Positions 20,894-50,684 of a DNA stretch of 64,000 bases are shown here, in pieces (position 1 is the stretch's first letter; every line of letters begins with the position of its first letter). The position numbers were made by a program, and so were the translations under genes. This DNA is from an uncultured Pseudomonadales bacterium (GTDB lineage: Bacteria > Patescibacteriota > Microgenomatia > UBA1400 > PJMF01): the NCBI GenBank assembly GCA_964412775.1, contig CAYPPX010000001.1, positions 1,122 to 65,121 on the forward strand, in the 5' to 3' direction. A model generated the notes under the pieces. That model saw only the letters and a program-made list of their open reading frames with translations, had not been told where the DNA came from and made no database searches.

Positions 20894-22579
20894 TTGCTTT
20901 TTAATTTCTTGACGTACAATATTAAACAAATGAGGCAAATCACTAAGCTTGCTATTTTTGCCGTTTTCCTACTACTAGGTTCTGTTGTTGTTGCCAAACC
21001 AGTTCAAGCTTTTGATTTGGTTGAATGGTTTCAAGAAACTTTTAATATTCAGAAAAACCTCGATGATTCGATTAATGCTCAAGTTAGAGCTTCAGAAGAA
21101 GGTGATGTTACTTTAACTTCTCTGGTACCCAATGTTGGTGGTGAAACTAGAAATGACCTACTTTTGGTTGCTGCTGGTGTACCTAAGGTTGAAAACAGTC
21201 CAGCACTACAAAGTATGACTGAAGAACAAAGAAAAATTGTTTATGAAAGATACGGTCGAGGCTTAATTGGTGACTCAGTTAATGCTGTAGCAATGCTTTA
21301 TACTCCTCCAGCTTCTGGTACAGTCTATGTTGCAGAACTGCTTAGATCTGCTCACATTATTCCTCAAGCCCATGCCCAAGGGTTAGGTTTTTCTGCCTTA
21401 GACCCAGTTTTAGAAACTTGGAAAGTCTTTAGAAACATTGCCTACCTATTTTTTGTAGTCGTATTTTTGGCAATAGGCTTAATGATTATGTTCCGTCAAA
21501 AAATTGGTGGCCAAACTGTGGTTACTGCTCAACAAGCTATACCAGGCATTATTGTCTCTTTAATTACCGTTACCTTCTCTTATGCTATTGCTGGATTTTT
21601 GATCGATTTAATGTACTTAATTATGTACTTAATGATTGGTTTATTTAGTCCTCAATCTGGTACAGAAATCATCAGTAAAAACTTTTTACAAATTGGTTTT
21701 GATGTAGTTACTGGGGTTAACACTAATGGGGCCTTTTCTAGTATGAACGAAGCTGTTAAAACCTTTGCTTCTTCAATCGATACTAGTGCCATTGGTGAAG
21801 TCTTGGGGTGGATTGGTGGTGTGACCATGGGCTTAATTGTTTCGATTGCTATTTTGATTGGTGTTTTCAAACTCTTTTTTGAACTACTCAAGATTTACAT
21901 TACTATTATTATTGCTATTGTGGTCAGTCCAGTTTTATTAATGATGGGAGCTATCCCAGGTAAAAGTAACTTTGGATATTGGGTTAAACTAGTCTTTGGT
22001 AACCTACTAGCTTTTCCAATGGTTCTATTTTCTTTAATTCTTTATGAGATGTTTACTAGTGGTGACCTTTCTGCCGGTGGCTTTATGCCTCCTTACTTGA
22101 TTGGTCGTGGATCTGGTAGTGTGATGATGACCTTGGTGGGAATCGGTATTATCATGATCATTCCAGAATTAATTAAAGAAATGAAAAAAGCCCTCAAAAT
22201 CGATGGTGGTATTTGGGAAACCTTGGCCTTCAAAGCTGTTGATCAAACCAAAGAAGGTCTTAGATACGGTGTACCAGGTGCCTACGTGGCTGGTGGCGCT
22301 ATTGGTGATACAGCCAAAGGTATCTGGGCTGGTAGAAAGAATCTTAAGACTATTCCTGGCAATGTTTATAGAAACGTTACTCAAAATGTTGGAGACAACC
22401 TTAGAAGAGGTAACCAGGCCGCCGCTAGTATTGAAAATGTGTTAGAAGGTAAGTTTAAAGATCCAAACAGTTGGGAGAACTTAATGCTCAGAAACCAACT
22501 AGAAGAACAAGAAAAACGTAGAAAAGAAGAAAAAGAACGACGCAGACAAAAAGTTAGAAGACCAAGACCAAACGGCTAG
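20894..22579 (+). CDS. Polytopic membrane protein, VirB6/TrbL-like candidate
   Basis: Signal peptide plus >=6 hydrophobic helices in the central region and a charged C-terminal tail (KRRKEEKERRRQKVRR); architecture and position in a VirB4-containing cluster. Confidence 0.35.
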   Translation: MLFNFLTYNIKQMRQITKLAIFAVFLLLGSVVVAKPVQAFDLVEWFQETFNIQKNLDDSINAQVRASEEGDVTLTSLVPNVGGETRNDLLLVAAGVPKVENSPALQSMTEEQRKIVYERYGRGLIGDSVNAVAMLYTPPASGTVYVAELLRSAHIIPQAHAQGLGFSALDPVLETWKVFRNIAYLFFVVVFLAIGLMIMFRQKIGGQTVVTAQQAIPGIIVSLITVTFSYAIAGFLIDLMYLIMYLMIGLFSPQSGTEIISKNFLQIGFDVVTGVNTNGAFSSMNEAVKTFASSIDTSAIGEVLGWIGGVTMGLIVSIAILIGVFKLFFELLKIYITIIIAIVVSPVLLMMGAIPGKSNFGYWVKLVFGNLLAFPMVLFSLILYEMFTSGDLSAGGFMPPYLIGRGSGSVMMTLVGIGIIMIIPELIKEMKKALKIDGGIWETLAFKAVDQTKEGLRYGVPGAYVAGGAIGDTAKGIWAGRKNLKTIPGNVYRNVTQNVGDNLRRGNQAAASIENVLEGKFKDPNSWENLMLRNQLEEQEKRRKEEKERRRQKVRRPRPNG

Positions 22580-22712
22580 TCATCAATAAGTTTAATTATA
22601 AATATTAAACACGCGACAACAATTTTGTTTGTCCACTATTCACTAAAAGTAAGATTTTTTTATAGACAAATAAATCAAATCAACATTGTGGTTAATTGAT
22701 ATTTACAAAGAA

Positions 22713-25700
22713 TTAAGCTCTAGTATCTTCGCTGACAGCCTCACTCTCCCAAGGGGCTTCAAATAAAAGTGGCTCACCATTAGGTAACTCTTTAGACCAA
22801 TTAAATGGTAAAAGCTTGCCCAAGAAGTTCTTTAAACCAAATTTAAACTCAACTTTATATTGCCATAAAGCTCTTAAGTAATTTAAAACCTTAAGATCAT
22901 ATTGGTATTCAACCATCTCTTTAACGTGGTAACCATCCATATATTTATGGACAAAGTCTTTGGTGGCTTGAGGCACACCACCCGCAGCATCCAGTTGTTT
23001 AAGCATAATATGTCTGAGCATATCAACCTCATCAACATTGGTTGCATTTGAATACATATGACTTAAGCGATGCATCATTCTGACGGTAAATGGTCCAAAT
23101 AATAAATGATGTCTTCCTGGTACAAGTTTTGCTTTACCAATAATTTTGTCTAACCATTCAATAAATTTGTGTTCAACCTCATCAAAACTTATCTCCTTTT
23201 GTTCTTGCATAAAGGCTTTGTTAAATTTCTCTAAAGCTTTAAAACTCACGGTCATATATTGATCAACAGTTAACCTAGTAAGCTGTGGAATACCAATATC
23301 ATTCAAACTTTTACCATAACCAAGTAAGTTGGCTTCTTCAGTGAAAGCAGCAATAGCTCTATCTTTGGCTGGCCCATCATCCATGGCCATCAAGTCTCGT
23401 TTTCTTTGTTCCATTTTCAAAATATTAATTGTGACTTCTCCTGGCAAAGGGAAAAAGTTGGAATTCAAATCCAACCTAGTTTCTGGCAAAGGATCTCTAG
23501 CAGTCGAGAAACCCATTAAGTCTCTAGTGTCCTTAACCCATTTTGGAATATTGTCCCAAACGGCTTGTCTATATTTATCAATAATATGCCATAGCTCTTT
23601 GATACTATGCATTTTATTATGTTTAGGATGACCACTACCATCATACTCGACCATTCCTACCAGATCTTTTTCATGAATATACAAAAGTTCTTCTGAGTTG
23701 GCTTTAGGTAAGTTATCTCCATATCTATTTCTGGAGTATTGGCCAGCTGCAAACGGAGCTGCCACAAATAATTCATCAGAAAATTCTTGTTTTCTAAGCC
23801 CAGTTAAAGCCAGTCCGTGAGCTCTGGTAGTAGCATGCATTAACCAAGGCACATAACCAGCAGATTTTGCAGCCATAGCTTGAGAATACTTAATCAGTTC
23901 TCCAAGTAATTTAGGATCAATATCGGCAAATTTTTGTTTTAAATGCTTGATAAAGTCACTCAGACGATCATTAAGTAAGTTGTTATAAGAGTAATCTTTT
24001 CGACCGAGTGGATCACTAGGATTTTCTGGGTCATAATTTAAGCCACCCCACTCTGGTTTACCCTTAATTCTTTGAACAATGTACTCATAAACCTCAATTG
24101 CCCGCATATTAATTTCTGCTTTATCCATATCTTCAGCAGTTAATGGGCCTTTTTTCTCTGGTCTTTTTAAGAAAAGGGCTCTAGCAATATTATTAAAGTC
24201 AACACCTTTATCTGCTAGCTCCACCATAATTGAGTCAAAACCAATATCAAAACCTTTGACACCAGTATCTCCAGCTGTCATCACAGCCTGTAAACCTCTT
24301 CTAACCCGATACCAAGATTCAAGTTGTTTATCTTCAACACTGCCAATTAATTCAAAATAACGTGCATTTAAGTCTCTTAAACGATCAGTTGGAACAATAG
24401 CTTCAGCAATTTCATCAATTACTTCTTCAATATCCATTTCATAAGGGTCTTTTTGCTTTTCAACCAAGCCCAATGATTTCAAATATCTCTCAGAAGTAAA
24501 TTTCCCAAGGCTGTCAATTTGTTTTCTAATCTCTAAATGAAGCAAAGATAATAACTCATTGGCTTTTTCATAGTCTACTGAGTCTGGATCTTTGACCAAT
24601 GACATTTCTTTTAAGTAGGCAGCATATTCACCATCATCAAGGTCTGCTGGTTTATTTCTGTAACCAATAGGAATACCCTTAACTTCTTTTTCCATCACAT
24701 CAGAGCTAATCGATTGAACTCTCTTGGCAGACTTAGATAAATAAAACAAAAGCTTTTCTAGTTTTTCTCTTTCTTTATCAGTAAGCTTAGCACCACCTTT
24801 GGCTGTTAGTTCTCTAGCAAATTTTTCTGCTAATCTCAAAGCATCAACTACCAGAATGTTGGTTGTATCTGCCTCTCCTCTTTCTGTTGATAAACTAAGT
24901 CCATCACCAATACTAACTCTGTTTAGGTTAAAGAAACTTTCAATTTCTCTAAGATTTTCTTTAGTACCTTTATCCTTAAAATCTTTGGCTCTTGGCTTTT
25001 CATCTAACATCAGTTCTATTTGATGAATAACTTTTTCTGCTTGATCAAAGAGCTCAGCATCAATCCTGGCTAACAAAGCACTGTTTTTTCTGGAACCTAC
25101 AAATTTTCTAGACTTAACTAATAAGTCACTCAACTCACTTCTTCTAGTTTCTAGGTTGTTCCAAGAATTTTTTCTAGGCAAAGTCTGAGACAATAGATCT
25201 TTCAAATTAGTCAAGTCTTCACTGTCAGCAAAAGCTTGTTGGTAAGCCTCTTCTGTAGAAAGGTTGTCAACATAAGCCTGCATTTTTTCTAAAAGTGCTT
25301 TAGCTGGAATAATAAAACGCTTAATTAGTTCAATTCTTTCTTTTCTTAAAGTAGTTGTTTGAATACTCTTGTAGTCATAAACTTCTTCCAACTCTTCAAT
25401 ATTAGTTTGGAGAAACTGAAGATAACTAGTTGGTGGAATAAATCCTGGTACCAGAGCTCTTGGATCAAGCCCAGTTGCATCACCAGTAAAAGCGTCGTTA
25501 ATCTCACGATATTTTTCTTCAAAAACTAATAGATCTTCAGGAATTTCAGTCTCTGCCTCTTCTTTAGATTCTTCTGAAGAAGTTAGACCTAAAATCTTTT
25601 TTTGTTCTTTAGATAAAAGTGGTTCAATCTCTGCAATATAGTTACCAATCAGGTTCATTATTGTTTGTACAGAGTTAAGAATATCTTCTGGTGAGTTTAG

Positions 25701-26069
25701 TTTTTTGGCAAAATCTTTTTCTTTTATTTTTAAAACATCTGGATATACACCACCAAGTCTAGAAACAGCTTTTAGTTTTTTGGCAAGTTTTGCTAGTTCT
25801 TCTAGAGATTTTTCTAATGAGGAAATAATTATGTCTTGTAGGTCTGGATCTTTTTTAAATTCATCTTGAAAATCACCTCCATAGATAACATCTTCCACTC
25901 TACTTAAAACCCGGTTTAGTGAGCCACTAACTCCAAGTTCCTCTAACTCAATCATTATTTTTTCTAAATCCAAAACAGTCCCAACTGTAACTTTTTTTTC
26001 ACGATCAGAGACAACAAACTTCATTGCCTCTTTTAGATTAGCTGGTCCTGATTCTCGTGATCCCGACAT
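22713..26069 (-). CDS. Giant hypothetical protein (1118 aa), predicted cytoplasmic
   Basis: Long ORF with no TM and no recognisable catalytic motif; divergent from the plus-strand T4SS-like operon; extended -10 (TGGTATAAT) 12 nt upstream of the ATG. Confidence 0.4.
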   Translation of the reverse strand: MSGSRESGPANLKEAMKFVVSDREKKVTVGTVLDLEKIMIELEELGVSGSLNRVLSRVEDVIYGGDFQDEFKKDPDLQDIIISSLEKSLEELAKLAKKLKAVSRLGGVYPDVLKIKEKDFAKKLNSPEDILNSVQTIMNLIGNYIAEIEPLLSKEQKKILGLTSSEESKEEAETEIPEDLLVFEEKYREINDAFTGDATGLDPRALVPGFIPPTSYLQFLQTNIEELEEVYDYKSIQTTTLRKERIELIKRFIIPAKALLEKMQAYVDNLSTEEAYQQAFADSEDLTNLKDLLSQTLPRKNSWNNLETRRSELSDLLVKSRKFVGSRKNSALLARIDAELFDQAEKVIHQIELMLDEKPRAKDFKDKGTKENLREIESFFNLNRVSIGDGLSLSTERGEADTTNILVVDALRLAEKFARELTAKGGAKLTDKEREKLEKLLFYLSKSAKRVQSISSDVMEKEVKGIPIGYRNKPADLDDGEYAAYLKEMSLVKDPDSVDYEKANELLSLLHLEIRKQIDSLGKFTSERYLKSLGLVEKQKDPYEMDIEEVIDEIAEAIVPTDRLRDLNARYFELIGSVEDKQLESWYRVRRGLQAVMTAGDTGVKGFDIGFDSIMVELADKGVDFNNIARALFLKRPEKKGPLTAEDMDKAEINMRAIEVYEYIVQRIKGKPEWGGLNYDPENPSDPLGRKDYSYNNLLNDRLSDFIKHLKQKFADIDPKLLGELIKYSQAMAAKSAGYVPWLMHATTRAHGLALTGLRKQEFSDELFVAAPFAAGQYSRNRYGDNLPKANSEELLYIHEKDLVGMVEYDGSGHPKHNKMHSIKELWHIIDKYRQAVWDNIPKWVKDTRDLMGFSTARDPLPETRLDLNSNFFPLPGEVTINILKMEQRKRDLMAMDDGPAKDRAIAAFTEEANLLGYGKSLNDIGIPQLTRLTVDQYMTVSFKALEKFNKAFMQEQKEISFDEVEHKFIEWLDKIIGKAKLVPGRHHLLFGPFTVRMMHRLSHMYSNATNVDEVDMLRHIMLKQLDAAGGVPQATKDFVHKYMDGYHVKEMVEYQYDLKVLNYLRALWQYKVEFKFGLKNFLGKLLPFNWSKELPNGEPLLFEAPWESEAVSEDTRA

Positions 26070-26353
26070 CTTATGGGAAAATTATACCATTTTTTCTCAA
26101 AAAAAGCTTTAAAAAAATATCTTATAACTTTTAGTTGAGAACCTAAAAATTAAATCAACAAAAACCAACATAAACATGCTATAACATAACTATTACTCGG
26201 AAGTTCCGTGAGATTCGGAGACTGTGCCGCAACGGTGATGTTTTTTATAAACTAGTCCGGTCGGAGTAAGCCACTTCATATCTGGAGTGAAGAAAGAATT
26301 TGTTAAAAATTCTTTACGACGAGCATCGGGCTAAATTTTAACTGCCTCCCGGT

Positions 26354-26373
26354 GCTCCTCTCAACAGAGGAGC
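26354..26373 (+). promoter_or_regulatory. SD-sequestering hairpin (GCTCCTCT-CAAC-AGAGGAGC) immediately upstream of the GTG start at 26378
   Basis: Perfect 8-bp stem whose 3' arm contains the AGAGGAG Shine-Dalgarno, 5 nt before the start codon; preceded by an unusually GC-rich ~150-nt leader. Confidence 0.3.
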
Positions 26374-26377
26374 TTTT

Positions 26378-28036
26378 GTGTTAACCAACCAATTTGAAAT
26401 ACCAACCTTACCATTTACTTTAACCGATTTGATTCCTAGTTTTTTAGGACAAAAACCAACTGATAGACTTGACAGCAACTTAGAGCTAGAACAAATTAAA
26501 CCAATTAATAATCCTGAACAAGATAAAACCATTATTATTCTTAACTTTATTCTTAAAGAAGTTTTGCCCATTAAAGACCGAACCAAACAAAAAGAACTTT
26601 TAGTTTATTTTTTTAAATCTATTTTGTCAGAAACTCAAAAACTTCCAATTACTCACTTGGCTTATGAAATAGTCCATAAAAATTCTGGAAAATTAGCACT
26701 TCACGATGATGTTTACTTACTTAGACCAGATTTACTCCAAATTTGTCAGGAAGCCATTGAGTCTTTGGCCATTAGTCATGTAGAAAAGGATAGATACAAC
26801 CTAGAAAAAGATCAAATTGAAAACTTATTGGCTGTTTTGGAAAGTCTTTTTAAACTAACACCACATGCCATTTTAAGTTTGTTGAGCCAACAAGAAACAA
26901 CTACTCCCAACTTAGTTGATACTAACAAAACCAAAGAAAGTTTGGAATTAACTGGCTGGCAAACCTTGCCGCCACCTAAAGCTTTTTCCTTTATCCAACC
27001 AGAAGTAAAAGAAAAAATGAAACTAGAAAAACTTACTGGAGAAATTACTATTGGGCCAAAATACTTGTATATAATGCCTCAATCAGCTGTTCATGAGGGA
27101 AACTTAAGTATTATTGTACTTGCTCAACCAGTCTTTATACCAAGTTTAAACCGATTTATTCTTCTACATGACCAACATATGTCTCCCAAAAACTGGTCAG
27201 ACCATGAGCAACTTTTCAAAAAACTAAAAGTTGAATTGCCAATAGACTTTTCCAACTTGGAGTTTGCTGAAAAAGAAAAACTGATTATGGAAAAATTAGT
27301 CAAACTACCCAAAGAATTTCAAGCCGCCACTGCTAGTGAAGCTTTTTTTAAGCTTTTTCCAGAAAAAAAATTTTTAAACCGATTAAGACAAAAAATTACC
27401 AGGCAAAAAATTAAGGGAATGGAAAAATCATTGGCAGAGTATGCTGAGTTGGTAATTGATGTTGTTGGTACTGAAGTAACCAATGACCAAAATCTTTTTT
27501 CTTCAACGGTAAATAAATTAACTAATTTCATGAACAGAGTGGTATTTGCCGGAATTTTAGACGTTAAAAAAATCTCGAGTGCTAAAAGAAATACTCTCTT
27601 TAGACATTTTAAAAAGTTCGGTGACTTAGCAGAAAGAGATTTTGCTCTTTCTCTAAAAAATATTGGTTTTTCTTCTGCAGTCAAAGCCTTTGATACTTCT
27701 CTGTTGGAATGTGTTGCTTTAAGTCCTTTATCCAGTGTTCAACAACTTGCAAAACTGAATGGTTTTTCACCCAACTCACTCACTAGAGTCGATTTAGGTA
27801 AATTTATTGGTGAAAAAAGATCTAAAGACTGGAAAATGGGTGCTTGTGTTAGATGTGGTGCTTTTAATACTTGGGTCGGAGAATGTAATTGGTGTCTAAC
27901 CTGTGAGCTAAACTATAACTCACCAAAAACCAATAGCTCAACTCAAAAAAATAATTTACCAAAAACTAGCTTACCTTCCAAAAAAACTAGCATTTTTACT
28001 GAAAACCTTGGCTCTTTTATTGCCAATTTAGTCTAA
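26378..28036 (+). CDS. Hypothetical protein (552 aa) with a C-terminal Cys4 zinc-ribbon
   Basis: GTG start with a strong SD; C-terminal CVRCGAFNTWVGECNWCLTCE motif. Confidence 0.4.
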   Translation: MLTNQFEIPTLPFTLTDLIPSFLGQKPTDRLDSNLELEQIKPINNPEQDKTIIILNFILKEVLPIKDRTKQKELLVYFFKSILSETQKLPITHLAYEIVHKNSGKLALHDDVYLLRPDLLQICQEAIESLAISHVEKDRYNLEKDQIENLLAVLESLFKLTPHAILSLLSQQETTTPNLVDTNKTKESLELTGWQTLPPPKAFSFIQPEVKEKMKLEKLTGEITIGPKYLYIMPQSAVHEGNLSIIVLAQPVFIPSLNRFILLHDQHMSPKNWSDHEQLFKKLKVELPIDFSNLEFAEKEKLIMEKLVKLPKEFQAATASEAFFKLFPEKKFLNRLRQKITRQKIKGMEKSLAEYAELVIDVVGTEVTNDQNLFSSTVNKLTNFMNRVVFAGILDVKKISSAKRNTLFRHFKKFGDLAERDFALSLKNIGFSSAVKAFDTSLLECVALSPLSSVQQLAKLNGFSPNSLTRVDLGKFIGEKRSKDWKMGACVRCGAFNTWVGECNWCLTCELNYNSPKTNSSTQKNNLPKTSLPSKKTSIFTENLGSFIANLV

Positions 28037-28084
28037 AGAAAAGCTAATGCGTTTCCATCTGGTAAAGGATATAATAGCTGATAG

Positions 28085-31000: not shown

Positions 31001-31663
31001 ATTAAAAAATTAGCTGACTTTCCAGAGTTATATGAAGAAATTATAATTGAACCTGGAGATTCAGTTACGCTTGTTTATTCTGAGTCACTTGACGAAAAAT
31101 ACAATGATGCTTCTATTACTAATAGATTTGAGCTCAAAGTTTTTGCCAAAGATCCAGCAACTGGTAAAGAAGGAACAGATACGGCCATTACTGGAGAGAT
31201 TGTCTATATTGGTGATTATTCTCAAGGAGAAGGTTGCTGGCCAACTAGTGGCACCATGCTCCAGCTACCATTTAATCAGGGCCCAGATTCAACCCACAGT
31301 CGCTGGGATGCTTTTGATATCGTTAATGTTGAAGGTACCCCAATTTATACTCCATTTGCTGGAAAAGCTTGTCCAGGAACCAGAGATGCCTCAATCTATG
31401 GTATTCATGTAACGCTACAATCAGACAAAGGCACTTTCCAGTTTTCCCATATGCACGCGACCAACGGCCTTGATAATGGGTGTAAAGATCTTCAACCAGG
31501 AGATGTAGTAGGCTACATGGGCACGACTGGTATGGGTGGAGTACACTTGGATTGGGCTAAAATTGGTCGTGGTTCTGCTCCATCAGATTTGGCCCCCATG
31601 ATGCCTGATGGTTTAAGCATTAAACCAGGAGACCCAGTAAGGAGTTGCTATGATGGTGGCTAA
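28085..31663 (+). CDS. Giant protein (1192 aa) with a central glycine-zipper membrane segment and a C-terminal M23 (LytM-type) metallopeptidase domain; candidate T4SS-associated cell-wall hydrolase
   Basis: Gly-rich hydrophobic stretch (GGAVGVGSLVVPLTTLGGQIGAALGSLVGGIFGGPGG), Ser/Thr/Ala-rich linker, then C-terminal GTPIYTPFAGK ... FSHMHAT (HxH) ... DW pattern of M23 peptidases. Confidence 0.55.
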   Translation: MTDHSQVAGAGVYTLKRLRDGVSLDQVLDFLKRISQTTFRDGERIDYSFASIFQNVQQSTLLINTKNRQQSIADGENPSFFLYKSDLAYLYSDLIRRFDNNLEDFKGTEDYSRLKALNIYCENHDGDLEISGENDVYLNGLLTDLVGRTTRFILPLLEDSKPKEAEAVPKETEANNEDQLDPQLVAAALNDRNNAQPVAPDLVNTGNENGSVVPPTDQPTNDPIATKNLLFSKDLREQAAKFTGIAIAQLEQQNGLPPGSLANSPDLQKVLSDKTMGFFLTTLGDGRAKDLIDPETRLTLIREYIWLVQNDFRTTAIISNRLENLQDLQPSQTNQLEVTLPDGTTKTISSEKALKEQVTQAISNASGASASIAEKIIAGINGNTELNTIFEKLGDNQLIEDRNGYLIQETTKLLQQELQRIGVQTDKISLAEKNVVNVVDAWILQGLPLDILKYVDDGKFKLIFGEEIPYNPTFLESLEEVWIARRSILGKRTGQLLLHNEARFATQEALALFDESKKLLTKKEANQVFERGIAAPTRQILVGSKGTAVKDPAEIIELTNGKKSATNSEKREVFLKQVWSTKDTNVKQEILIVLGYGDPGSKAIQNLAENADFYPKEIGLHDMAPLLGGAAFYDQSQINNYQSNYIPNQGIIQNPLANVGQFAQKTKNLTNKLRGGIKGIGSRFSKKAAQKAADKAAEAGLSTVASTATGAINPALGFLTKLASTKKGRRALLIGGAVGVGSLVVPLTTLGGQIGAALGSLVGGIFGGPGGAVLGGISGSWTGYGIQKWFGGLFSKSPSSNLINPLTSQATASPLAQSALNSATTTTATQAAALNTASTTFVGQTITHVAGQAVLGTVGLITASELMFQSTVLGALTANFPVVEPLGAFSIDGVDGKVSEFVSIEKRAFIAGCPENKCESPSFPIKVEYTVTIAPKGNYTIQILDATDTLKVNHSKKAWEEKGKTPPTIPERIKKLADFPELYEEIIIEPGDSVTLVYSESLDEKYNDASITNRFELKVFAKDPATGKEGTDTAITGEIVYIGDYSQGEGCWPTSGTMLQLPFNQGPDSTHSRWDAFDIVNVEGTPIYTPFAGKACPGTRDASIYGIHVTLQSDKGTFQFSHMHATNGLDNGCKDLQPGDVVGYMGTTGMGGVHLDWAKIGRGSAPSDLAPMMPDGLSIKPGDPVRSCYDGG

Positions 31664-32639
31664 TAAGAAAAAAGAATTTGCTTGGCTTTTATATTTAGGA
31701 ATTTTTGTATTCGTTTCATTAGTAATAGCCATCTTATTCTGGATCATCACTCCCAGAGAAACAGTTATTCAAAAAACTGACTTTATTACTACCAATAAAG
31801 ACCAACAAAAAACTAACTTTTCTGGTATTGCCTTTGTTGGCACTCCCATTGAGACTCCCCAAAAACTGCCTATTCTAGCTATTAAAACAGAACATGATGC
31901 TGCTGACACTATAAAAAATAGTTTAATCGATCAATATAAACTTATAAAACACCCCAATTTAAGTGGTCTTTGGCTAAGCGACTTATACTCACTTTCATAT
32001 AATTCTCTAGATAAAGCTTATATCTTCTTTGATAAAACATATCGTCCAGAAGATGCTAACTTATACTTAAATAGTGTTAATAAAGCCATTAGTGTTTCTA
32101 CAGATTTTGTTAAGAGGCTATTCCCAGAGTTAACAATCGAAGTTGATAAAAATAATTTAGTTTATTTAGAAGGTCTGGTAGAGATGCATCCAGGTGAAAA
32201 AAACCATGCTAACTCAGTCATGATTCCATTTAACTATATGTATCAAGGTGTTCCTTTATTCGTTGATAAAAACCGAGGCAACCTTTTAGAGTTAATTGTT
32301 AATGCTAGAGATGAAATTAAAAAAATAACTTTTAAAGAAGATATTATTAGTTTTATCCCTACCGAAAAAACCATTTCAATTATTAGCCTAACTGAAGCGA
32401 TCGAAAATATTAATCAAAGCGAGGCTTTATTACTTAACTCTTATAGTGAAGATGGTTTACCCTACTCAATTAGTGACATTGCTTATGGAGATCTAGAAAC
32501 CGTTAAACTTGAATACCGAGCTGATCTAGATACTAACATTGCTTATCCCTTCTACCACTTCTACGGTAACTTAGTAAATAATAACAACAAACAATTTAAG
32601 GCAGAGATCATTACTCCGGCCGTAAAAGTTGTTGAGTAG
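31650..32639 (+). CDS. Bitopic membrane protein (N-terminal TM plus extracytoplasmic domain); VirB8/TcpC-like position (speculative)
   Basis: Start overlaps the upstream stop by 14 nt (coupling); single N-terminal TM FAWLLYLGIFVFVSLVIAILFWII; no recognised motif. Confidence 0.3.
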   Translation: MMVANKKKEFAWLLYLGIFVFVSLVIAILFWIITPRETVIQKTDFITTNKDQQKTNFSGIAFVGTPIETPQKLPILAIKTEHDAADTIKNSLIDQYKLIKHPNLSGLWLSDLYSLSYNSLDKAYIFFDKTYRPEDANLYLNSVNKAISVSTDFVKRLFPELTIEVDKNNLVYLEGLVEMHPGEKNHANSVMIPFNYMYQGVPLFVDKNRGNLLELIVNARDEIKKITFKEDIISFIPTEKTISIISLTEAIENINQSEALLLNSYSEDGLPYSISDIAYGDLETVKLEYRADLDTNIAYPFYHFYGNLVNNNNKQFKAEIITPAVKVVE

Positions 32640-32679
32640 GTCTAGCAACACGTTTCTATACACGCTAAGATAGTAATGA

Positions 32680-33732
32680 ATGCGTGAACATCCAATCCCA
32701 CAAGACGTTGTGGGTTACAAATTCCATATTGTTGGTAACATGACCTTAAAGCAGTTTGCCGAGGTCGCAATTGGTGTGGTTATTGGTGTAATTCTTTACA
32801 ATACAAACTTAGTTGATCTGGTTAAATGGCCATTAATTATTTTGTCTGCTGGTATTGGTGTTTTAGTCGCATTTGTACCAATTGAAGAAAGACCACTGGA
32901 TCACTGGATTACTACTTTTTTCAAAAGAATTTATAACCCAACTAAGTTTTACTGGAAAAAAGAAACTGAGATTCCATTTGCTTTTATGCACGTCAAACGA
33001 GAAAAAACTAAAGAAGAGGAAGACTTTGAGATTGATCTTACTCCTGCCAGAAGACAAAGAATCAAAGAATATCTAAGTTCTGTAGGTGAAAAAAAGGCAA
33101 TCGATCCATTGGATACAGAAGAACAACAAAGAATGACTAGTATTCTTGAGGAGTATAGTAAAGTTGAAGTCAAAAATATTACTGCCACACCTCAACAAAT
33201 TAAGCCTAACCTTACCACTAAAGTCAGAAACCTAGCTAAAAAATCAACAATTTCTACCGAAAATTCAGAAAAAATTATTTTTCAACAACAACAAAAAACA
33301 AACCAACAACTTAAGCAAGAAGATCAACAAAATCAACAAGGTTTAACCACAGCTCCTCAGCTCACCACGCCTGCAGTAGCTAATGAAGAGCTTAAAATAG
33401 ACAAACAAGCCTTTACTTTGCCAGATGAAGCTGTTGCAACCAACAAAGAACTTCCTTTTCCACAACAACCTACCACACCCAACACCTTGGTGGGGATGGT
33501 GCTAACTCCAGAGAATAAGTTGGTTGATCAAGCAACAGTACAAATAAAAAATAACAATGGTCAAGTGATTTACGCACTAAAAACGAACTTGTTGGGACAA
33601 TTTTCTCTTAGTTCTGCTCTGCCCAATGGTACTTATGTTTTAACTACTCAAAAAACTGGTTTTAACTTTAATGATCAAACAATTACACTAAGTGGCAAAA
33701 TTGTTTCACCACTAGAAATTAGATCTGCCTAG
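32680..33732 (+). CDS. Membrane protein with an N-terminal two-helix hairpin (VirB3/PrgI-like candidate) and a C-terminal carboxypeptidase-regulatory-like beta-sandwich
   Basis: Two adjacent TM helices in the first 70 aa (pattern of VirB3/PrgI preceding VirB4 in Gram-positive-type T4SS); C-terminal GMVLTPENKLVDQATVQIKNNNGQ...NGTYVLTTQKTGF resembles the CarbopepD_reg fold. Confidence 0.3.
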   Translation: MREHPIPQDVVGYKFHIVGNMTLKQFAEVAIGVVIGVILYNTNLVDLVKWPLIILSAGIGVLVAFVPIEERPLDHWITTFFKRIYNPTKFYWKKETEIPFAFMHVKREKTKEEEDFEIDLTPARRQRIKEYLSSVGEKKAIDPLDTEEQQRMTSILEEYSKVEVKNITATPQQIKPNLTTKVRNLAKKSTISTENSEKIIFQQQQKTNQQLKQEDQQNQQGLTTAPQLTTPAVANEELKIDKQAFTLPDEAVATNKELPFPQQPTTPNTLVGMVLTPENKLVDQATVQIKNNNGQVIYALKTNLLGQFSLSSALPNGTYVLTTQKTGFNFNDQTITLSGKIVSPLEIRSA

Positions 33733-33782
33733 GATTTTCTCATTGCGATTAGGGCTTAACTTCTAGTACCATAGAGGAAGGT

Positions 33783-34931
33783 ATGCCTGACGTTAATGAA
33801 ATTTCTTCTACCACTCAAAAATTTTTGGATATTTTTGATATTACTAATGATGTGGTTGTCTTAAAAGATGGCACTATCTCTTTAATTATGGTCATCAGTG
33901 CCATGAACTTTGGATTGCTAGCTGAACAAGAACAAGATGCAGTCATTTATGCTTATGCTGCTTTACTCAACTCTCTAAACTTCCCAATCCAAATTATTAT
34001 TAGTTCAAAAACCAAAGATGCTACAGCCTACTTGAGATTATTAGATGAACAAGCAGAAAAAGCATCAACTCAAGAGAAAGAAGACTTAATCAAGAGATAT
34101 CAAACTTTTGTCGGTCAACTAATCAGAGAAAGAAATGTTCTTGATAAAAAGTTTTATGTTTCAATTCCAGCTTCACCAGCAGAAGTTGGCATGATTACTC
34201 CTCAATCAGTTTTACCGGGCAATAGTGAAACCAAACTAACTAGAGACCAAAAAACTGCAGTCATTGAAAAAGGACTGGGGGTTTTAGAACCAAGAAGAGA
34301 TCATTTAATTGCTCAATTTAACAGAATTGGTCTTTACGCTAGACAACTCCATACCCAAGAGATTATTGAGATTTTCTATAATAACTATAATCCAGAGGCT
34401 TATGAAGGCCAACAAATTACTGATAGCAGTAACTATACCACTATGGTGGTTCAAGCCAAAACAGCTCCAGATTTAAGTTCTTTAAAAAGCTTAACTGAAG
34501 CAAATACAGCTAGCCAAGACAATCCAACTACCTTGGCTGAATTGCCACCTGCAGGAGTAGCTGAAATTAGTGAATCAGCAGTGGTACCTAGAGAACTACC
34601 AGAAAATAATTCTGGAATAGTGATAAACCAACCGGCTAGTCAACAAGCTCAAACACCTGTTAATGAACCCAAAATTGAACCAACAGTTACTCAGCCTCAA
34701 CCGACTCAACTTCCAAGTAAGCCTTTACCAAAACCAGCCCAACAAACTGTTTTTCAAGCAAATAAACCAGTTTTAGACACCACTGATCAACAACCACCAA
34801 TGAACCAACCTCTAGCTCAACCAAGTATCCAGAGTCAACCACAACTAACTTTAGAAAAAACAATTAGTGAAGTACCAATAAATAATCCTCAACCTACTGA
34901 CAAACCATTACCACCAGTAGCTGAGCTTTAA
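33783..34931 (+). CDS. Hypothetical protein with a Pro/Gln-rich C-terminal tail, just upstream of the VirB4-like ATPase
   Basis: ORF; low-complexity PQ-rich C-terminus; no motif. Confidence 0.3.
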   Translation: MPDVNEISSTTQKFLDIFDITNDVVVLKDGTISLIMVISAMNFGLLAEQEQDAVIYAYAALLNSLNFPIQIIISSKTKDATAYLRLLDEQAEKASTQEKEDLIKRYQTFVGQLIRERNVLDKKFYVSIPASPAEVGMITPQSVLPGNSETKLTRDQKTAVIEKGLGVLEPRRDHLIAQFNRIGLYARQLHTQEIIEIFYNNYNPEAYEGQQITDSSNYTTMVVQAKTAPDLSSLKSLTEANTASQDNPTTLAELPPAGVAEISESAVVPRELPENNSGIVINQPASQQAQTPVNEPKIEPTVTQPQPTQLPSKPLPKPAQQTVFQANKPVLDTTDQQPPMNQPLAQPSIQSQPQLTLEKTISEVPINNPQPTDKPLPPVAEL

Positions 34932-34960
34932 ATAAATTTGATGGAGTAAAATAAAAAACA

Positions 34961-37081
34961 ATGCCTTTACAACTGCCTTTTTTTAAACAAAAGCAAAACG
35001 ATCAGCCAGCAAAATTAACTCCTGAGCAAAAACAAATGGAAAAAGTGAGAGAATTTTCTCAGGGTTTAGTCACTATTCAAGACATTATTGCTCCAGAAGC
35101 GATCGAGGTTGATTTTACTTATCAACAAATTAACTCAACTTATACGCGTACATTATTTGTGGCTGGTTATCCAAGAACTGTCCCAGCTAACTGGCTATCT
35201 CCTTTAATCAACTTTCCTAATCAAGCCAATATCGCCATGTTTATTTATCCAGTAGATTCTGCTGAAGTTTTGGATAATTTGAAAAGGAAAATTACAGAAA
35301 TGGAGGCTGAAATTCAATCAGATATTAGATCTGGTAAGATCAGTAACATTAACACCGAAATTAAGCTCAGTGACGCTCGAACAATCCGTGAACAGTTGGC
35401 AGCTGGTTCAGAAAGATTTTTCCAATTTGGTTTATATGTCACGCTTACTGCTCCAAGCATGGAGTATTTAGATAAAGTCACTAAAAACATTCAATCAATG
35501 CTTGGGTCTTTGTTAATTGTTTCTAAAAAAGCCACTTTACAAATGGACGAGGGTTTTAAAACTACCTTACCAATGGGTAAAGATAAATTAATGATTACTA
35601 GAAACATGGATACTACTTCTCTGGCAACAACTTTTCCTTTTACTTCTTCAGAACTTACCATGGAAACAGGTATCCTCTATGGTATTAATGAACACAATGA
35701 TTCATTGGTTATTTTTGATCGTTTTAAGATGGAAAACGCCAACATGGTTATTTTTGCCAAATCTGGTGCTGGTAAATCTTACACGGTGAAACTTGAGATT
35801 ATTCGTCAGCTAATGTTTGATGCTGAAGTAATTGTACTTGATCCTGAACACGAGTATGAAGAATTGGCAAAAAAAGTTGGTGGTGAATACATTAACTTTA
35901 CTTTTGGTTCCAAAACTAAAATCAACCCATTTGACCTTTCTGCGATGTACGAAGAAGGTGAAAATGAATTAGGCCAAAAAATCTTAACTTTGCATGGTTT
36001 ATTAAAAGTAATGCTAGGAGACATGACCTCTCAGCAAGAAGCTCTGCTTGACCGAGCTTTGATTGCTGCTTATAAAGCTAAGGGTATTACACCAGACCCG
36101 GTCACCCAAACCAATGAACCACCTCTGATGGAAGATTTATACAAGGCTTTAATTGGTATGGAAAATGAAGAAGCTAATGATGTGGCAGCTAGACTAGAAA
36201 AATTCATTACGGGTTCTTTTAGAGGTATTTTTGATAAACCATCCAACTTAGATATCACCAATCCTTTCACAGTTTTTTCGGTTAAAGAAATGGAAGAAGA
36301 ACTTCGACCAATTGCGATGTTTATTATTCTTGATTTTATCTGGACAAGAGTAAAAAAAGACCTTAAACGTAGAATTTTGGTCATTGATGAGGCTTGGTAC
36401 TTTATGAAACATAAAGACAGTGCTTCATTTATTCATTCAATGGTAAAACGTGCTAGAAAATACTATTTAGGCATTACTACCATTACTCAAGATGTTGAAG
36501 ATTTTATCCATAATGATTACGGTAAAGCGATTGTTAGTAATGCTTCAATTCAATTTTTAATGAAGCAATCAACTGCTTCCATTCCAGTCTTAGCAGAAAC
36601 TTTTTACCTTTCAGAGGGAGAAAGACAATTATTGGTTTCATCTGATGTCGGTGAGGGTATCTTTTTTGCTGGCCAAAACCACGTCGCTCTAAGAGTGGTG
36701 GCTAGTGACGAAGAACATGAAGTTATTACCACCAACCCAGAAGAAATTCTTAAAAAGAAAGAAGAAGAACAAAGACTTAAGTTAGAAAAGATGGCTGAAT
36801 TAGAAAAAGCTAAAGAAAAAAAACCTAAATTTTCTTTTGGCGTACCAACTAGCCAAAAAAACAAACCAGCTACTGCAACTCTTTCACAGCCAGGCATAGT
36901 CCCGGAACAAACGCAGAAAACTGATAGTCTTGAAAAAGAACCAACTGAAGCTCCTAATGCTAAAGCGACTCAATCTTCAGTAGATCAAGTAAAACCAGTT
37001 ACTAAACCAGTACAACAAAATGACCGTCCAGACTATGCTGGTTACTACACGATTGATGACTATTCCCCACCAGAAAGCTAG
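34961..37081 (+). CDS. VirB4/TrbE/CagE-family type IV secretion ATPase
   Basis: Walker A FAKSGAGKSYTV, Walker B ILVIDEAWYFM, overall length and the VirB4-typical C-terminal NTPase region. Confidence 0.8.
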   Translation: MPLQLPFFKQKQNDQPAKLTPEQKQMEKVREFSQGLVTIQDIIAPEAIEVDFTYQQINSTYTRTLFVAGYPRTVPANWLSPLINFPNQANIAMFIYPVDSAEVLDNLKRKITEMEAEIQSDIRSGKISNINTEIKLSDARTIREQLAAGSERFFQFGLYVTLTAPSMEYLDKVTKNIQSMLGSLLIVSKKATLQMDEGFKTTLPMGKDKLMITRNMDTTSLATTFPFTSSELTMETGILYGINEHNDSLVIFDRFKMENANMVIFAKSGAGKSYTVKLEIIRQLMFDAEVIVLDPEHEYEELAKKVGGEYINFTFGSKTKINPFDLSAMYEEGENELGQKILTLHGLLKVMLGDMTSQQEALLDRALIAAYKAKGITPDPVTQTNEPPLMEDLYKALIGMENEEANDVAARLEKFITGSFRGIFDKPSNLDITNPFTVFSVKEMEEELRPIAMFIILDFIWTRVKKDLKRRILVIDEAWYFMKHKDSASFIHSMVKRARKYYLGITTITQDVEDFIHNDYGKAIVSNASIQFLMKQSTASIPVLAETFYLSEGERQLLVSSDVGEGIFFAGQNHVALRVVASDEEHEVITTNPEEILKKKEEEQRLKLEKMAELEKAKEKKPKFSFGVPTSQKNKPATATLSQPGIVPEQTQKTDSLEKEPTEAPNAKATQSSVDQVKPVTKPVQQNDRPDYAGYYTIDDYSPPES

Positions 37082-37098
37082 TTTCTCTAAAATTCCTC

Positions 37099-37129
37099 TT
37101 GACACATTGTGGAAAACTAGGTGTATAAC
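37099..37129 (+). promoter_or_regulatory. Candidate dnaA promoter (TTGACA ... TATAAC) with an overlapping DnaA-box-like TGTGGAAAA
   Basis: TTGACA at 37099-37104, TATAAC at 37124-37129; TTGTGGAAAA in the spacer suggests autoregulation. Confidence 0.35.
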
Positions 37130-37195
37130 TAAACAATTAAATCTGACCTGTCCTCTAAGATTTTAACTGTCAATAAAACTGTCCAAAAAGGAAAA

Positions 37196-38683: not shown

Positions 38684-38952
38684 TTATCAACAATTGTGGA
38701 AAACTTTGGGGAAAAATCAGTGGAAAGTTGTTGGAAAACTTTTAATAACTTTTTAAGTTTGTGAATAAGCAGTCGATTTTTACAAAGTTTTCCATCACAA
38801 TACACAAAGTTTTACAGATGACTAAAACGAAACAATCAACAGTGTTTTTAAGTAATAAACCAGACCTAAAAGTAAAGTTTATTCACTTATCCACACACTC
38901 TATTATTACTACAACAAATATATTTATATAAATAGTTAGATAAGTAAGATTT
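38684..38952. promoter_or_regulatory. Putative oriC: DnaA boxes plus an AT-rich unwinding element between dnaA and dnaN
   Basis: Perfect TTATCCACA at 38887-38895; TTATCAACA at 38685-38693; TGTGGAAAA at 38696-38704; further TGGAAA-type half sites; AT-rich AAATATATTTATATAAATAG tract at ~38917-38936. Confidence 0.55.
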
Positions 38953-50585: not shown

Positions 50586-50629
50586 AATTTAAGTCAAAAA
50601 TTCGTTGTTAATGGCATTATACATCAGAA

Positions 50630-50662: not shown

Positions 50663-50684
50663 CTTGATTACTTTTTTGAAGTCT

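What the first reader, a model, noticed from the sequence alone, without database searches (positions are those of the whole stretch)
20894..37081. Chromosomal T4SS-like cluster ending at dnaA: VirB6-like, giant proteins, M23 hydrolase, VirB3/VirB8-like membrane proteins and a VirB4 ATPase, with no relaxase or integrase
A plus-strand run from 26378 to 37081 has tiny intergenic gaps or overlaps (31650/31663) and ends in a clear VirB4/TrbE ATPase (Walker A GAGKSYT, Walker B VIDEAWY). Upstream are a polytopic VirB6-like protein, a divergent 1118-aa cytoplasmic protein, a 552-aa protein with a C-terminal zinc ribbon and a 1192-aa protein with an M23 peptidase domain. A bitopic protein sits in the VirB8/TcpC position and a two-helix N-terminal membrane protein directly precedes VirB4, where VirB3/PrgI would sit. 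No relaxase, integrase, transposase or flanking tRNA is visible, and the cluster ends ~100 bp from the dnaA promoter. This looks like a core chromosomal Gram-positive-style minimal T4SS used for something other than plasmid conjugation, such as surface filament or effector delivery, DNA uptake or host-cell attachment in a reduced-genome symbiont. Several members are large unannotatable proteins, so the system is likely undescribed.
Basis: partly seen in the sequence, partly recalled or inferred. Interest (0 to 1): 0.8.

Follow-up and report, generated by a model that had tools for sequence, protein, structure and literature searches.

The report
Known Patescibacteria type IV secretion locus
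This is the chromosomal, relaxase-free type IV secretion system that ultrasmall Patescibacteria (CPR bacteria) keep next to their replication origin; it is real and well conserved, but it was already described in 2023-2025, so the locus is one more example, not a new system.

Summary
The gene run is real. 34961-37081 is a VirB4 ATPase of the Gram-positive (MPF-FATA, CD1110) type, preceded by a TrsD-like VirB4 N-domain protein, a PrgI/VirB3-like protein and a VirB6-like protein. It ends 114 bp before dnaA. The 64-kb window has no relaxase, integrase, transposase or tRNA.

The closest relatives are Patescibacteria MAGs, many labelled Candidatus Pacebacteria. The order giant peptidase, bitopic partner, PrgI, TrsD, VirB4, DnaA recurs across the 80 related genomes fetched. 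This matches the published Patescibacteria T4SS (Wang 2023; Quinonero-Coronel 2025), including the dnaA position and missing relaxase, so "undescribed" is wrong.

Corrections:
- The cluster starts near 13760/15623 and includes VirB2-like pilins.
- A seven-gene pilin array lies at 50175-53126, and a VirD4-like ATPase at 3050-5227.
- The protein directly before VirB4 has no membrane helix.
- The "VirB8-position" protein has a YycH/YycI/PepSY-like fold, not VirB8.

Possibly new details:
- The giant protein's C-terminal peptidase (M23, CHAP, C39-like, HExxH) swaps together with the downstream partner gene.
- A degenerate DHH-like gene and a hypervariable large ORF flank the VirB6-like gene.

Function is unknown, as in the field. 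Host interaction is more likely than conjugation.

The parts
3050..5227 (+). VirD4-like coupling-protein-type ATPase (725 aa), about 30 kb from virB4. Its link to the system is uncertain.
   Evidence: Pfam TrwB_AAD_bind scores 40.0 bits (threshold 20.5) and TraG-D_C 33.5 bits (threshold 22). The best NCBIfam match is the VirD4-like CD1115 family at E 6e-16, far below its cutoff. Walker A GKTGTGKST and Walker B YLYVDEFQ are present, and I saw no hydrophobic N-terminal helix when reading the sequence. A 47%-identical copy lies inside the T4SS block in L124.
13760..15520 (-). SpoIID/LytB-domain protein (cell-wall lytic transglycosylase family), at the upstream edge of the conserved block.
   Evidence: TIGR02669 scores 115 bits against a cutoff of 83.3. 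Pfam SpoIID also hits. It sits next to the pilin genes in 14 loci, including distant ones.
15623..16876 (+). 417-aa protein with a signal peptide, an extracellular domain of about 330 aa and a C-terminal VirB2-like pilin module.
   Evidence: PF18895 T4SS_pilin scores 30.2 bits against a threshold of 26.6, at residues 351-404. Sequence read. The position is conserved in relatives.
16866..17309 (+). Small VirB2-like pilin (147 aa as the longest ORF; called as 142 aa in near-identical contigs).
   Evidence: PF18895 scores 26.9 bits against 26.6. Gene call in L081/L082.
17325..19994 (+). 889-aa secreted, cysteine-rich protein of unknown function, always between the pilins and the VirB6-like gene.
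   Evidence: It has an N-terminal hydrophobic segment, and the conserved alignment columns are mostly Cys. The family has 33 members in related loci. A few members carry glycoside-hydrolase or SLT domains. The window copy has no Pfam or PDB hit.
20011..20832 (-). Degenerate DHH-family (NrnA/RecJ-like) domain protein, about 271 aa, divergent from the VirB6-like gene. The longest ORF runs to 20997.
   Evidence: The family profile matches DHH/DHHA1 phosphodiesterase TM1595 (E 5e-9), a RecJ-like protein (1e-8) and NrnA in the PDB. The DHH motif is absent from the family consensus. It lies next to the VirB6-like gene in 35 of 63 loci. It is called as 271 aa in L081.
20894..22579 (+). VirB6-like polytopic membrane protein. 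The start is probably near 20930, where a signal-peptide-like sequence begins.
   Evidence: About 7 hydrophobic segments. Weak NCBIfam hits to the Mycoplasma ICE proteins Mbov_0396 and MMCAP2_0566 (E 1e-4). The 49%-identical orthologue in L088 passes Pfam TrbL/VirB6 (28.3 bits against 25.9). Only 1 of 40 family members passes TrbL.
22713..26069 (-). 1118-aa protein with no membrane segment, on the opposite strand. It belongs to a large ORF that is conserved in position but hypervariable in sequence.
   Evidence: No Pfam, NCBIfam or PDB hit. Only one homologue (97% identical) came from the word-indexed search. A large minus-strand ORF sits after the VirB6-like gene in about 60 loci. Residues 691-798 link it to a 22-member cluster (hhalign probability 96.8%, E 2e-10).
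26378..28036 (+). 552-aa protein with a C-terminal zinc ribbon. It is lineage-restricted.
   Evidence: The motif C..C...GEC.WCL.CE and the tail LGSF(V/I)A(N/G)L are conserved in 12 members. No family hits.
28085..31663 (+). 1192-aa giant protein. N-terminal region of about 650 aa with no signal peptide or hydrophobic segment, then a glycine-rich membrane/linker region, a beta-sandwich and a C-terminal M23/LytM peptidase domain.
31650..32639 (+). 329-aa bitopic protein with a YycH/YycI/PepSY-like extracytoplasmic fold. It is the partner of the M23 domain, not VirB8.
32680..33732 (+). PrgI/VirB3-like protein with two N-terminal membrane helices and a C-terminal CarboxypepD_reg (beta-sandwich) domain.
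   Evidence: PF12666 scores 30.4 bits against 27, and PF13620 35.7 against 32.3. Hydrophobic segments at 21-68. Present in 69 of 80 loci.
33783..34931 (+). TrsD/TraC-like protein, a free-standing homologue of the VirB4 N-terminal region, with a Pro/Gln-rich tail and no membrane helix.
   Evidence: NCBIfam TrsD at E 5e-7, and VirB4_plasma model positions 103-232 at E 5e-7. PF26593 TraC-like on the identical protein in L081. Present in 72 of 80 loci.
34961..37081 (+). VirB4 ATPase of the MPF-FATA (CD1110) type.
   Evidence: It is 70-86% identical in 80 Patescibacteria loci. Its median identity of 82% exceeds DnaA at 57% in the same 54 genomes, but the loci were selected by VirB4 similarity.
37082..38952 (.). 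dnaA (37196-38683) with its two spacers; the probable oriC region.
   Evidence: DnaA TIGR00362 scores 450 bits. Four DnaA-box-like sites lie in 38684-38895, including the only perfect TTATCCACA in the window, and one lies at 37108-37116. The cumulative GC-skew minimum is at 36-38 kb.
50175..53126 (-). Array of seven tandem VirB2-like pilin genes on the other side of the origin.
   Evidence: Five ORFs hit PF18895, four of them above the gathering threshold. All seven share the TM-GGD.GK-TM module. Over all nine pilin-like modules in the window, mean pairwise identity is 24.6% and the maximum 62%. In relatives the array lies directly upstream of the 889-aa gene.

Best explanation
The locus is the Patescibacteria (CPR) chromosomal type IV secretion system, in a lineage whose closest database relatives are mostly labelled Candidatus Pacebacteria.

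Shown here:
- The conserved parts are a split VirB4 motor (a TrsD-like N-domain protein plus VirB4), a PrgI/VirB3-like and a VirB6-like membrane protein, and nine VirB2-like pilin genes.
- It also carries cell-wall enzymes: a SpoIID-domain protein and a giant membrane protein ending in an M23/LytM domain, followed by a YycH/PepSY-like partner.
- The block is fixed beside dnaA/oriC in related genomes.

Inferred:
- VirB4/TrsD, anchored by PrgI and the VirB6-like protein, powers assembly of a pilin-based surface structure or channel through a wall opened locally by the hydrolases.
- The machine moves proteins or other macromolecules between the epibiont and its bacterial host, rather than conjugating DNA.
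- The direction of transport and the cargo are unknown.
For: - Family assignments.
- Taxon: the best VirB4 relatives are Patescibacteria/Pacebacteria MAGs at 70-86% identity, and one 329-aa homologue is named Candidatus Pacebacteria.
- Synteny: giant, partner, PrgI, TrsD, VirB4, DnaA, DnaN, YidC across 80 genome loci. The upstream half (SpoIID, pilins, 889-aa protein, DHH-like, VirB6-like, large minus-strand ORF) recurs across 63 metagenome loci.
- No relaxase, integrase, transposase or tRNA in 64 kb. G+C equals the flanks.
- Literature match on every main point: PMC12102498. In S. epibionticum the cluster SEML1_0004-0019 lies next to dnaA/dnaN/recF, is nearly all essential, and includes a 1113-aa protein ending in a LAS-type peptidase (PMC10633639).
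- The giant's C-terminal domain matches LytM domains, including that of the T4SS hydrolase PrgK.
Against: - No VirB4 phylogeny was built, so placement in the published Patescibacteria clade rests on best hits and synteny.
- The VirB6-like call is weak for this copy.
- The M23 domain of this copy is below the Pfam threshold and has Asp in place of the last zinc-binding His, so it may be inactive.
- A VirD4-like ATPase is present in the window, so DNA or nucleoprotein transfer cannot be excluded.
- No experiment exists for this lineage. Essentiality is known only from one Saccharimonadia species.
- The field states that the role of this T4SS is completely unknown (PMC11665869).
Confidence: 0.85

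Rival explanations
1. It is a nucleic-acid import or export machine, like the H. pylori ComB or archaeal Ced systems. The T4SS would take up host DNA or RNA to supply nucleotides to an organism that cannot make them.
For: - VirB4 and the VirD4-like ATPase give weak hits to the archaeal DNA-import proteins CedB (E 1e-14) and CedD (5e-9).
- RadA lies at 5392-6789.
- A DHH/RecJ/NrnA-like gene is conserved beside the VirB6-like gene.
- The hypothesis is raised in PMC12102498 and PMC11665869.
Against: - The Ced hits are generic P-loop similarity, far below the model cutoffs.
- The DHH-like protein has lost the DHH motif.
- No ssDNA-binding or ComEC-type component lies in the block.
- No experimental support exists anywhere.
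Confidence: 0.15
2. It is an interbacterial effector system. The giant protein's swappable C-terminal peptidase would be a cell-wall-cutting 'warhead' aimed at the host bacterium, the co-varying downstream bitopic protein its immunity or inhibitor protein, and the hypervariable 1118-aa protein a translocated effector.
For: - The C-terminal domain is M23, CHAP, C39-like or HExxH on a homologous scaffold.
- The downstream partner changes with it: M23 with the 329-aa family in 46 of 46 loci, HExxH with a family of about 200 aa in 9 of 9, and C39-like with a 135-aa family in 4 of 4.
- The median gap between the giant gene and the next gene is 1.5 nt over 74 loci.
- PepSY, YpeB and YycH-type folds occur in proteins that control peptidases or wall hydrolysis (the functional link is my own knowledge).
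- A large ORF hypervariable in sequence but fixed in position sits in the locus.
Against: - Gram-positive T4SSs normally carry a membrane-anchored wall hydrolase for their own wall (PrgK, TraG, CwlT), also with mixed domains. The same data therefore fit a VirB1-like housekeeping role with a cognate regulator.
- The giant looks membrane-anchored rather than secreted.
- The counts are loci, not independent swap events.
- No toxicity or immunity data exist.
Confidence: 0.2
3. It is an integrated conjugative element, or the decayed remnant of one, that happens to lie beside dnaA.
For: The VirB4 and VirD4-like proteins are closest to ICE families of Firmicutes (CD1110, CD1115) and Mycoplasma (Mbov_0395-0397).
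Against: - There is no relaxase, integrase, transposase or tRNA.
- G+C matches the flanks.
- The same locus lies next to DnaA in 76 of 80 related genomes.
- VirB4 is more conserved than DnaA in those genomes.
Confidence: 0.03

Closest known systems
Patescibacteria-clade T4SS (Quinonero-Coronel et al. 2025, PMC12102498; S. epibionticum SEML1_0004-0019, Wang et al. 2023, PMC10633639)
   Same: - VirB4 with an adjacent TrsD, PrgI/VirB3, VirB6-like protein, PF18895 VirB2-like pilins and a pilin array.
- No relaxase, and the coupling-protein homologue lies far from virB4.
- Chromosomal position by dnaA/dnaN/rnpA.
- A giant protein ending in a LAS-type peptidase next to the core genes.
   Different: - Gene order differs from S. 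epibionticum. Here the giant peptidase precedes PrgI, and the pilin array is split across the origin.
- No NTF2-like (VirB8-type) protein was found here. S. epibionticum has one (SEML1_0012), which is non-essential.
- The papers I read do not mention the YycH/PepSY-like partner, the DHH-like gene, the zinc-ribbon protein or the hypervariable minus-strand ORF.
[quoted passage not shown]
   Same: - VirB4 is above the CD1110 family cutoff.
- TrsD and PrgI homologues are present.
- There are no outer-membrane core components.
   Different: - There is no relaxase, no adjacent coupling protein and no surface adhesin.
- It has VirB2-like pilins, which these systems lack.
- It is fixed in the chromosome at the origin rather than carried on a mobile element.
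Mycoplasma ICE transfer module (Mbov_0395 pilin-like, Mbov_0396 membrane protein, Mbov_0397 VirB4)
   Same: The three families give the best or near-best NCBIfam hits for the pilins, the VirB6-like protein and TrsD/VirB4. They stand in the same relative order.
   Different: All hits except VirB4 are far below the cutoffs. Mycoplasma ICEs are mobile and encode a DDE transposase and a coupling protein.
YycH/YycI and YpeB (bitopic extracytoplasmic regulators built from PepSY-like domains)
   Different: There is no sequence similarity and no WalK-type kinase or SleB nearby. Here it is paired with an M23 domain inside a T4SS operon.

Membership tests
Patescibacteria chromosomal T4SS | VirB4 of MPF-FATA type that clusters with Patescibacteria VirB4 | tested here: met
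   NF045971 scores 392 bits against a cutoff of 325. The 80 best genome hits include many MAGs titled Patescibacteria, Pacebacteria or Paceibacterota, at 70-86% identity; about half carry titles from other taxa, such as 'uncultured Pseudomonadales'. No tree was built.
Patescibacteria chromosomal T4SS | TrsD homologue next to virB4 | tested here: met
   33783-34931 hits TrsD at E 5e-7 and TraC-like PF26593. It ends 29 nt before virB4.
Patescibacteria chromosomal T4SS | PrgI/VirB3 homologue | tested here: met
   PF12666 scores 30.4 bits against a threshold of 27.
Patescibacteria chromosomal T4SS | VirB6-like polytopic protein | tested here: inconclusive
   The window copy gives only E 1e-4 hits. 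One 49%-identical orthologue passes TrbL, but only 1 of 40 family members does.
Patescibacteria chromosomal T4SS | VirB2-like pilins (PF18895), often in arrays | tested here: met
   Two pilin genes lie at 15623-17309 and seven at 50175-53126.
Patescibacteria chromosomal T4SS | No relaxase near virB4; chromosomal position by dnaA/dnaN | tested here: met
   No MOB family hit in the 64-kb window. dnaA starts 114 bp downstream. The rest of the genome was not available.
Patescibacteria chromosomal T4SS | Required for epibiotic growth | not testable with these tools
   Known only for S. epibionticum (PMC10633639).
Integrative conjugative element | Relaxase, integrase or recombinase, and attachment sites or a tRNA target | tested here: not met
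   None found. The locus is fixed in relatives. oriT and repeats were not searched.
VirB8 / TcpC / PrgL (for the 329-aa protein) | NTF2-like fold after an N-terminal membrane helix | tested here: not met
Peptidase M23 (for the 1192-aa protein) | M23 fold with HxxxD and HxH zinc and catalytic motifs | tested here: inconclusive
VirD4-type coupling protein (3050-5227) | N-terminal membrane anchor plus TrwB/TraG nucleotide-binding and all-alpha domains | tested here: inconclusive
   The P-loop domains pass Pfam. No membrane helix was seen. The NCBIfam CD1115 hit of 58 bits is far below its 250-bit cutoff.

The most novel reading that the evidence does not exclude
The giant protein and the gene after it form a swappable cassette inside the T4SS operon: a cell-wall peptidase domain (M23, CHAP, C39-like or HExxH) plus a matching membrane-anchored partner. 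The cassette would work like a toxin-immunity or enzyme-inhibitor pair that lets the epibiont cut its host's wall at the contact site. The hypervariable large ORF next to the VirB6-like gene would be a fast-evolving translocated effector. I did not find this in the papers I read.
Probability: 0.2. Interest if true: 0.6.

Novelty: already known. Interest (0 to 1): 0.3.

Why it matters
The Patescibacteria T4SS is one of the few machines known to be essential for the epibiotic life of these abundant, mostly uncultured bacteria, and its cargo and direction of transport are still unknown. This locus adds no new kind of system. It does give a clean, fully syntenic example from the Pacebacteria-like lineage. 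It also offers three testable leads for people working on the mechanism:
- a peptidase domain that is exchanged together with its downstream partner;
- a catalytically degenerate DHH-like protein tied to the VirB6-like gene;
- a large ORF that is fixed in position but hypervariable in sequence.

Tried and rejected
- **ICE or mobile-element reading:** rejected.
- **Exact-sequence look-ups:** VirB4 and the 100%-identical 329-aa protein were not on record, so the source record was not identified beyond 'NCBI, contig 362,951 bp'.
- **Word-indexed homologue searches:** they gave only 6, 1 and 7 hits. The alignment query added almost nothing.
- **PDB sequence searches:** nothing useful for the 889-aa protein, the 1118-aa protein or the VirB6-like family. 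The giant gave only a weak M23 hit.
- **SLT-like C-terminus of the 889-aa protein:** the motif G[LF][LM]Q[IV] occurs in six relatives, but the window copy has no Pfam SLT hit. Only L118 hits SLT_3, weakly. Inconclusive.
- **Uniting the large minus-strand ORFs into one family:** iterative HMM search did not converge. hhalign linked only two clusters through a core of about 100 aa.
- **u552 against the ORF family in the same position elsewhere:** not significant.
- **afdb50 fold library:** not available.
- **Promoter and terminator scans:** no more sites than in shuffled sequence.

Full report
**Observation**

ORF 34961-37081 is a VirB4 ATPase:
- It scores 392 bits on NCBIfam NF045971 (VirB4-like, CD1110 family; cutoff 325).
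- It passes Pfam P-loop_TraG, AAA_10, DUF87 and CagE_TrbE_VirB.
- The quoted Walker strings are present.
- dnaA (TIGR00362, 450 bits) starts 114 bp after the VirB4 stop and is followed by dnaN, rnpA, yidC, an R3H protein and RNase H.

ARAGORN finds no tRNA and Rfam nothing in the 64 kb. Pfam scans of the ORFs of at least 100 aa that look like genes gave no relaxase, integrase or transposase hit.

**Corrections to the anatomy**

- The gene directly before VirB4 (33783-34931) has no hydrophobic helix. It matches TrsD and positions 103-232 of a VirB4 model, and the identical protein in a near-identical contig carries PF26593 TraC-like. VirB4 is in effect split.
- The two-helix PrgI/VirB3 protein is 32680-33732 (PF12666 above threshold), with a C-terminal CarboxypepD_reg domain.
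- The VirB6-like call for 20894-22579 is weak: E about 1e-4 to two Mycoplasma ICE membrane-protein families. A 49%-identical orthologue passes Pfam TrbL/VirB6, but only 1 of 40 family members does.
- The cluster begins further upstream. 15623-16876 and 16866-17309 carry the PF18895 T4SS pilin module. 13760-15520 is a SpoIID/LytB-domain protein.
- Elsewhere in the window, 3050-5227 is a VirD4-like P-loop ATPase (TrwB_AAD_bind and TraG-D_C above threshold). 50175-53126 holds seven tandem VirB2-like pilin genes. Over all nine pilin-like modules in the window, mean pairwise identity is 24.6%.

**Origin and conservation**

A scan of one genome per species with VirB4 returned 80 loci at 70-86% identity. 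Many are titled Patescibacteria, Candidatus Pacebacteria or Paceibacterota. About half carry 'uncultured Pseudomonadales' titles, which I take to be mislabels of the same kind of MAG.

tblastn and ORF clustering show one order throughout:
- large minus-strand ORF, sometimes a 550-700-aa protein, giant protein, small bitopic protein, PrgI, TrsD, VirB4, DnaA, DnaN, YidC, R3H, RNase H, DUF4012;
- PrgI is present in 69 of 80 loci, TrsD in 72 and DnaA in 76.

A metagenome scan with the VirB6-like protein gave 63 more loci. These show the upstream half: SpoIID(-), pilins (often 6-9 in tandem), the 889-aa secreted protein, the DHH-like gene(-), the VirB6-like gene, then a large minus-strand ORF.

Further points:
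- In this window the pilin array has been separated from the block and lies on the other side of the origin.
- G+C of the block equals its flanks.
- In 54 genomes VirB4 is more conserved (median 82%) than DnaA (57%), YidC (54%) or DnaN (43%). The loci were chosen by VirB4 similarity, which inflates this.
- The locus is therefore a fixed chromosomal feature, not a mobile element.

**Comparison with the literature**

PMC12102498 surveyed 3,035 Patescibacteria genomes. It reports:
- a monophyletic VirB4 clade nested in MPF-FATA;
- frequent neighbouring TrsD, PrgI/VirB3 and VirB6 genes, PF18895 VirB2-like pilins, and pilin arrays averaging 25% identity;
- coupling-protein homologues mostly far from virB4, and almost no relaxases;
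- proximity to dnaA, dnaN and rnpA, especially in Paceibacteria and Microgenomatia.

PMC10633639 showed by Tn-seq that the S. epibionticum cluster is essential for epibiotic growth. Its supplementary tables place that cluster (SEML1_0004-0019) right after dnaA/dnaN/recF. They list a VirB6-like protein, an NTF2-like protein, PrgI, VirB4, pilins, a lysozyme/cysteine-peptidase protein and a 1113-aa protein ending in a Hedgehog/DD-peptidase (LAS) domain.

[quoted passage not shown] A 2024 perspective states that their role is completely unknown (PMC11665869).

**The 'VirB8-position' protein**

An AlphaFold model of the 329-aa protein (7-sequence alignment; pLDDT 82.2, pTM 0.71) was compared with solved structures.
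- Foldseek's only significant hit is YycH (E 2e-5).
- It is therefore a membrane-anchored, extracytoplasmic YycH/PepSY-like protein, not a VirB8.

**The giant protein**

A direct HMMER search of 1.84 billion representatives found only 233 relatives, conserved mainly over residues 650-1190. The AlphaFold model (67 sequences, pLDDT 72.6) gives:
- confident domains at 10-160 and 223-625;
- a poorly modelled glycine-rich helical stretch at 683-896;
- a confident beta-sandwich plus M23 domain at 900-1190.

Orthologues pass the Pfam M23 threshold. The window copy does not (23.8 against 28.7 bits). It has Asp where at least 90% of the family has the second His of HxH, a change shared with L004. It may be weakened or non-catalytic.

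**A co-varying pair**

On homologous N-terminal scaffolds the C-terminal domain differs:
- M23 in most loci;
- CHAP in L072 (26.5 bits against a threshold of 26);
- a C39-like Cys/His domain in four loci (weak Pfam hit);
- an HETGH zincin-like domain in nine loci.

Examples of the shared scaffold: L014 (HExxH) against L024 (M23) at 40% identity over 1365 aa, and L072 (CHAP) against L066 (M23) at 29% over about 800 aa.

The gene immediately downstream changes with the domain:
- the 329-aa family with M23 in 46 of 46 loci;
- a family of about 200 aa with HExxH in 9 of 9;
- a 135-aa family with the C39-like domain in 4 of 4;
- a PEGA protein in one variant.

The median gap between the two genes is 1.5 nt (ORF starts taken maximally). 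HExxH forms sit on at least three different scaffolds, which suggests more than one swap. However, these are counts of loci, not of events.

This ties the bitopic protein to the peptidase domain rather than to the T4SS channel. It may be a regulator or inhibitor of a VirB1-like wall hydrolase, or an immunity-like partner of a host-directed peptidase. The present data do not separate these two readings.

**Other conserved neighbours**

- The minus-strand gene at 20011-20832 belongs to a family whose profile matches DHH phosphoesterases (TM1595 at E 5e-9, a RecJ-like protein, NrnA). It has lost the DHH motif and has no DHHA1 domain. It accompanies the VirB6-like gene in 35 of 63 loci.
- The 1118-aa minus-strand protein has no detectable domains and almost no sequence relatives. 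Yet a large minus-strand ORF occupies this position in about 60 loci. A core of about 100 residues links two of the clusters (hhalign probability 96.8%).
- The 552-aa protein keeps its zinc ribbon and a C-terminal LGSF(V/I)A motif in 12 relatives.
- The 889-aa protein is secreted and cysteine-rich. A few relatives carry glycoside-hydrolase or SLT modules. An SLT-like motif in the window copy was not confirmed.

**Origin of replication**

The cumulative GC skew is lowest at 36-38 kb. Four DnaA-box-like sites, including the only perfect TTATCCACA in the window, cluster in the dnaA-dnaN spacer, and one lies in the VirB4-dnaA spacer. The plus-strand T4SS operon left of this point therefore reads towards the origin, head-on to replication. 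By its gene coordinates the S. epibionticum cluster does the same.

**Mechanism**

Shown: the parts list and its conservation.

Inferred from knowledge of MPF-FATA systems and from the S. epibionticum genetics:
- A VirB4/TrsD motor held at the membrane by PrgI and a VirB6-like protein builds a pilin-based structure.
- It does so through a wall opened by SpoIID-type and M23-type enzymes.
- The structure serves exchange with the host bacterium rather than plasmid conjugation.
- Cargo and direction are open.

**Verdict**

This is a correct detection of a real and biologically important system, but that system is already in the literature. The residual novelty is limited to accessory-gene details.

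Noticed in passing
window 28085-32639; L014, L027, L029, L072, L090 and others: The giant protein's C-terminal enzyme domain (M23, CHAP, C39-like, HExxH) is exchanged on a homologous scaffold. The gene immediately downstream changes with it: 46 of 46, 9 of 9 and 4 of 4 loci for the three main types.
   Followed up: partly
window 31537-31550 (giant protein residues about 1151-1156): This copy, like L004, reads GVHLDW where at least 90% of the family has HLH. The last zinc-binding His of the M23 motif is replaced by Asp, so the domain may be non-catalytic, like the LytM domains of EnvC and SpoIIQ.
   Followed up: partly
window 20011-20832 (-): A degenerate DHH-family (NrnA/RecJ-like) domain protein, without the DHH motif or a DHHA1 domain, is conserved divergently next to the VirB6-like gene in 35 of 63 related loci.
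   Followed up: partly
window 22713-26069 (-) and the equivalent position in about 60 loci: A large minus-strand ORF (500-1400 aa) always follows the VirB6-like gene but is hypervariable in sequence. Only a core of about 100 residues (residues 691-798 here) links two of the clusters.
   Followed up: partly
window 26378-37081 relative to 37082-38952: The core T4SS operon reads towards the probable oriC (GC-skew minimum and DnaA-box cluster), which is head-on to replication. The S. epibionticum cluster has the same orientation relative to dnaA.
   Followed up: no
window 50175-53126 (-) compared with L089-L131: In most relatives the 6-9-gene pilin array lies directly upstream of the 889-aa gene. 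Here only two pilin genes remain there, and a seven-gene array lies about 13 kb beyond dnaA next to an ECF sigma factor gene (53151-53714).
   Followed up: partly
window 15623-17309, 20894-22579, 33783-37081: The pilins, the VirB6-like protein and TrsD/VirB4 give their best or near-best NCBIfam hits to the consecutive Mycoplasma ICE families Mbov_0395, Mbov_0396 and Mbov_0397. Pilin-like proteins may therefore not be unique to Patescibacteria within MPF-FATA.
   Followed up: no
window 26378-28036; family c21 in L014, L024, L042, L050 and others: The zinc-ribbon protein ends in LGSF(V/I)A(N/G)L. Unrelated-looking proteins of 610-710 aa in the same position elsewhere carry a similar (L/I)GL(S/Q)(D/E)F(V/I)xG motif near their C-terminus.
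   Followed up: no
window 1950-3049: A 1.1-kb stretch upstream of the VirD4-like gene has no ORF of 100 aa or more and no Rfam match.
   Followed up: no
window 1101-1949 (-), 5392-6789 (-), 54231-55280 (+): A sortase, RadA and RecF lie in the same window. The published survey notes radA and recombination genes near T4SS loci in another class (ABY1).
   Followed up: no
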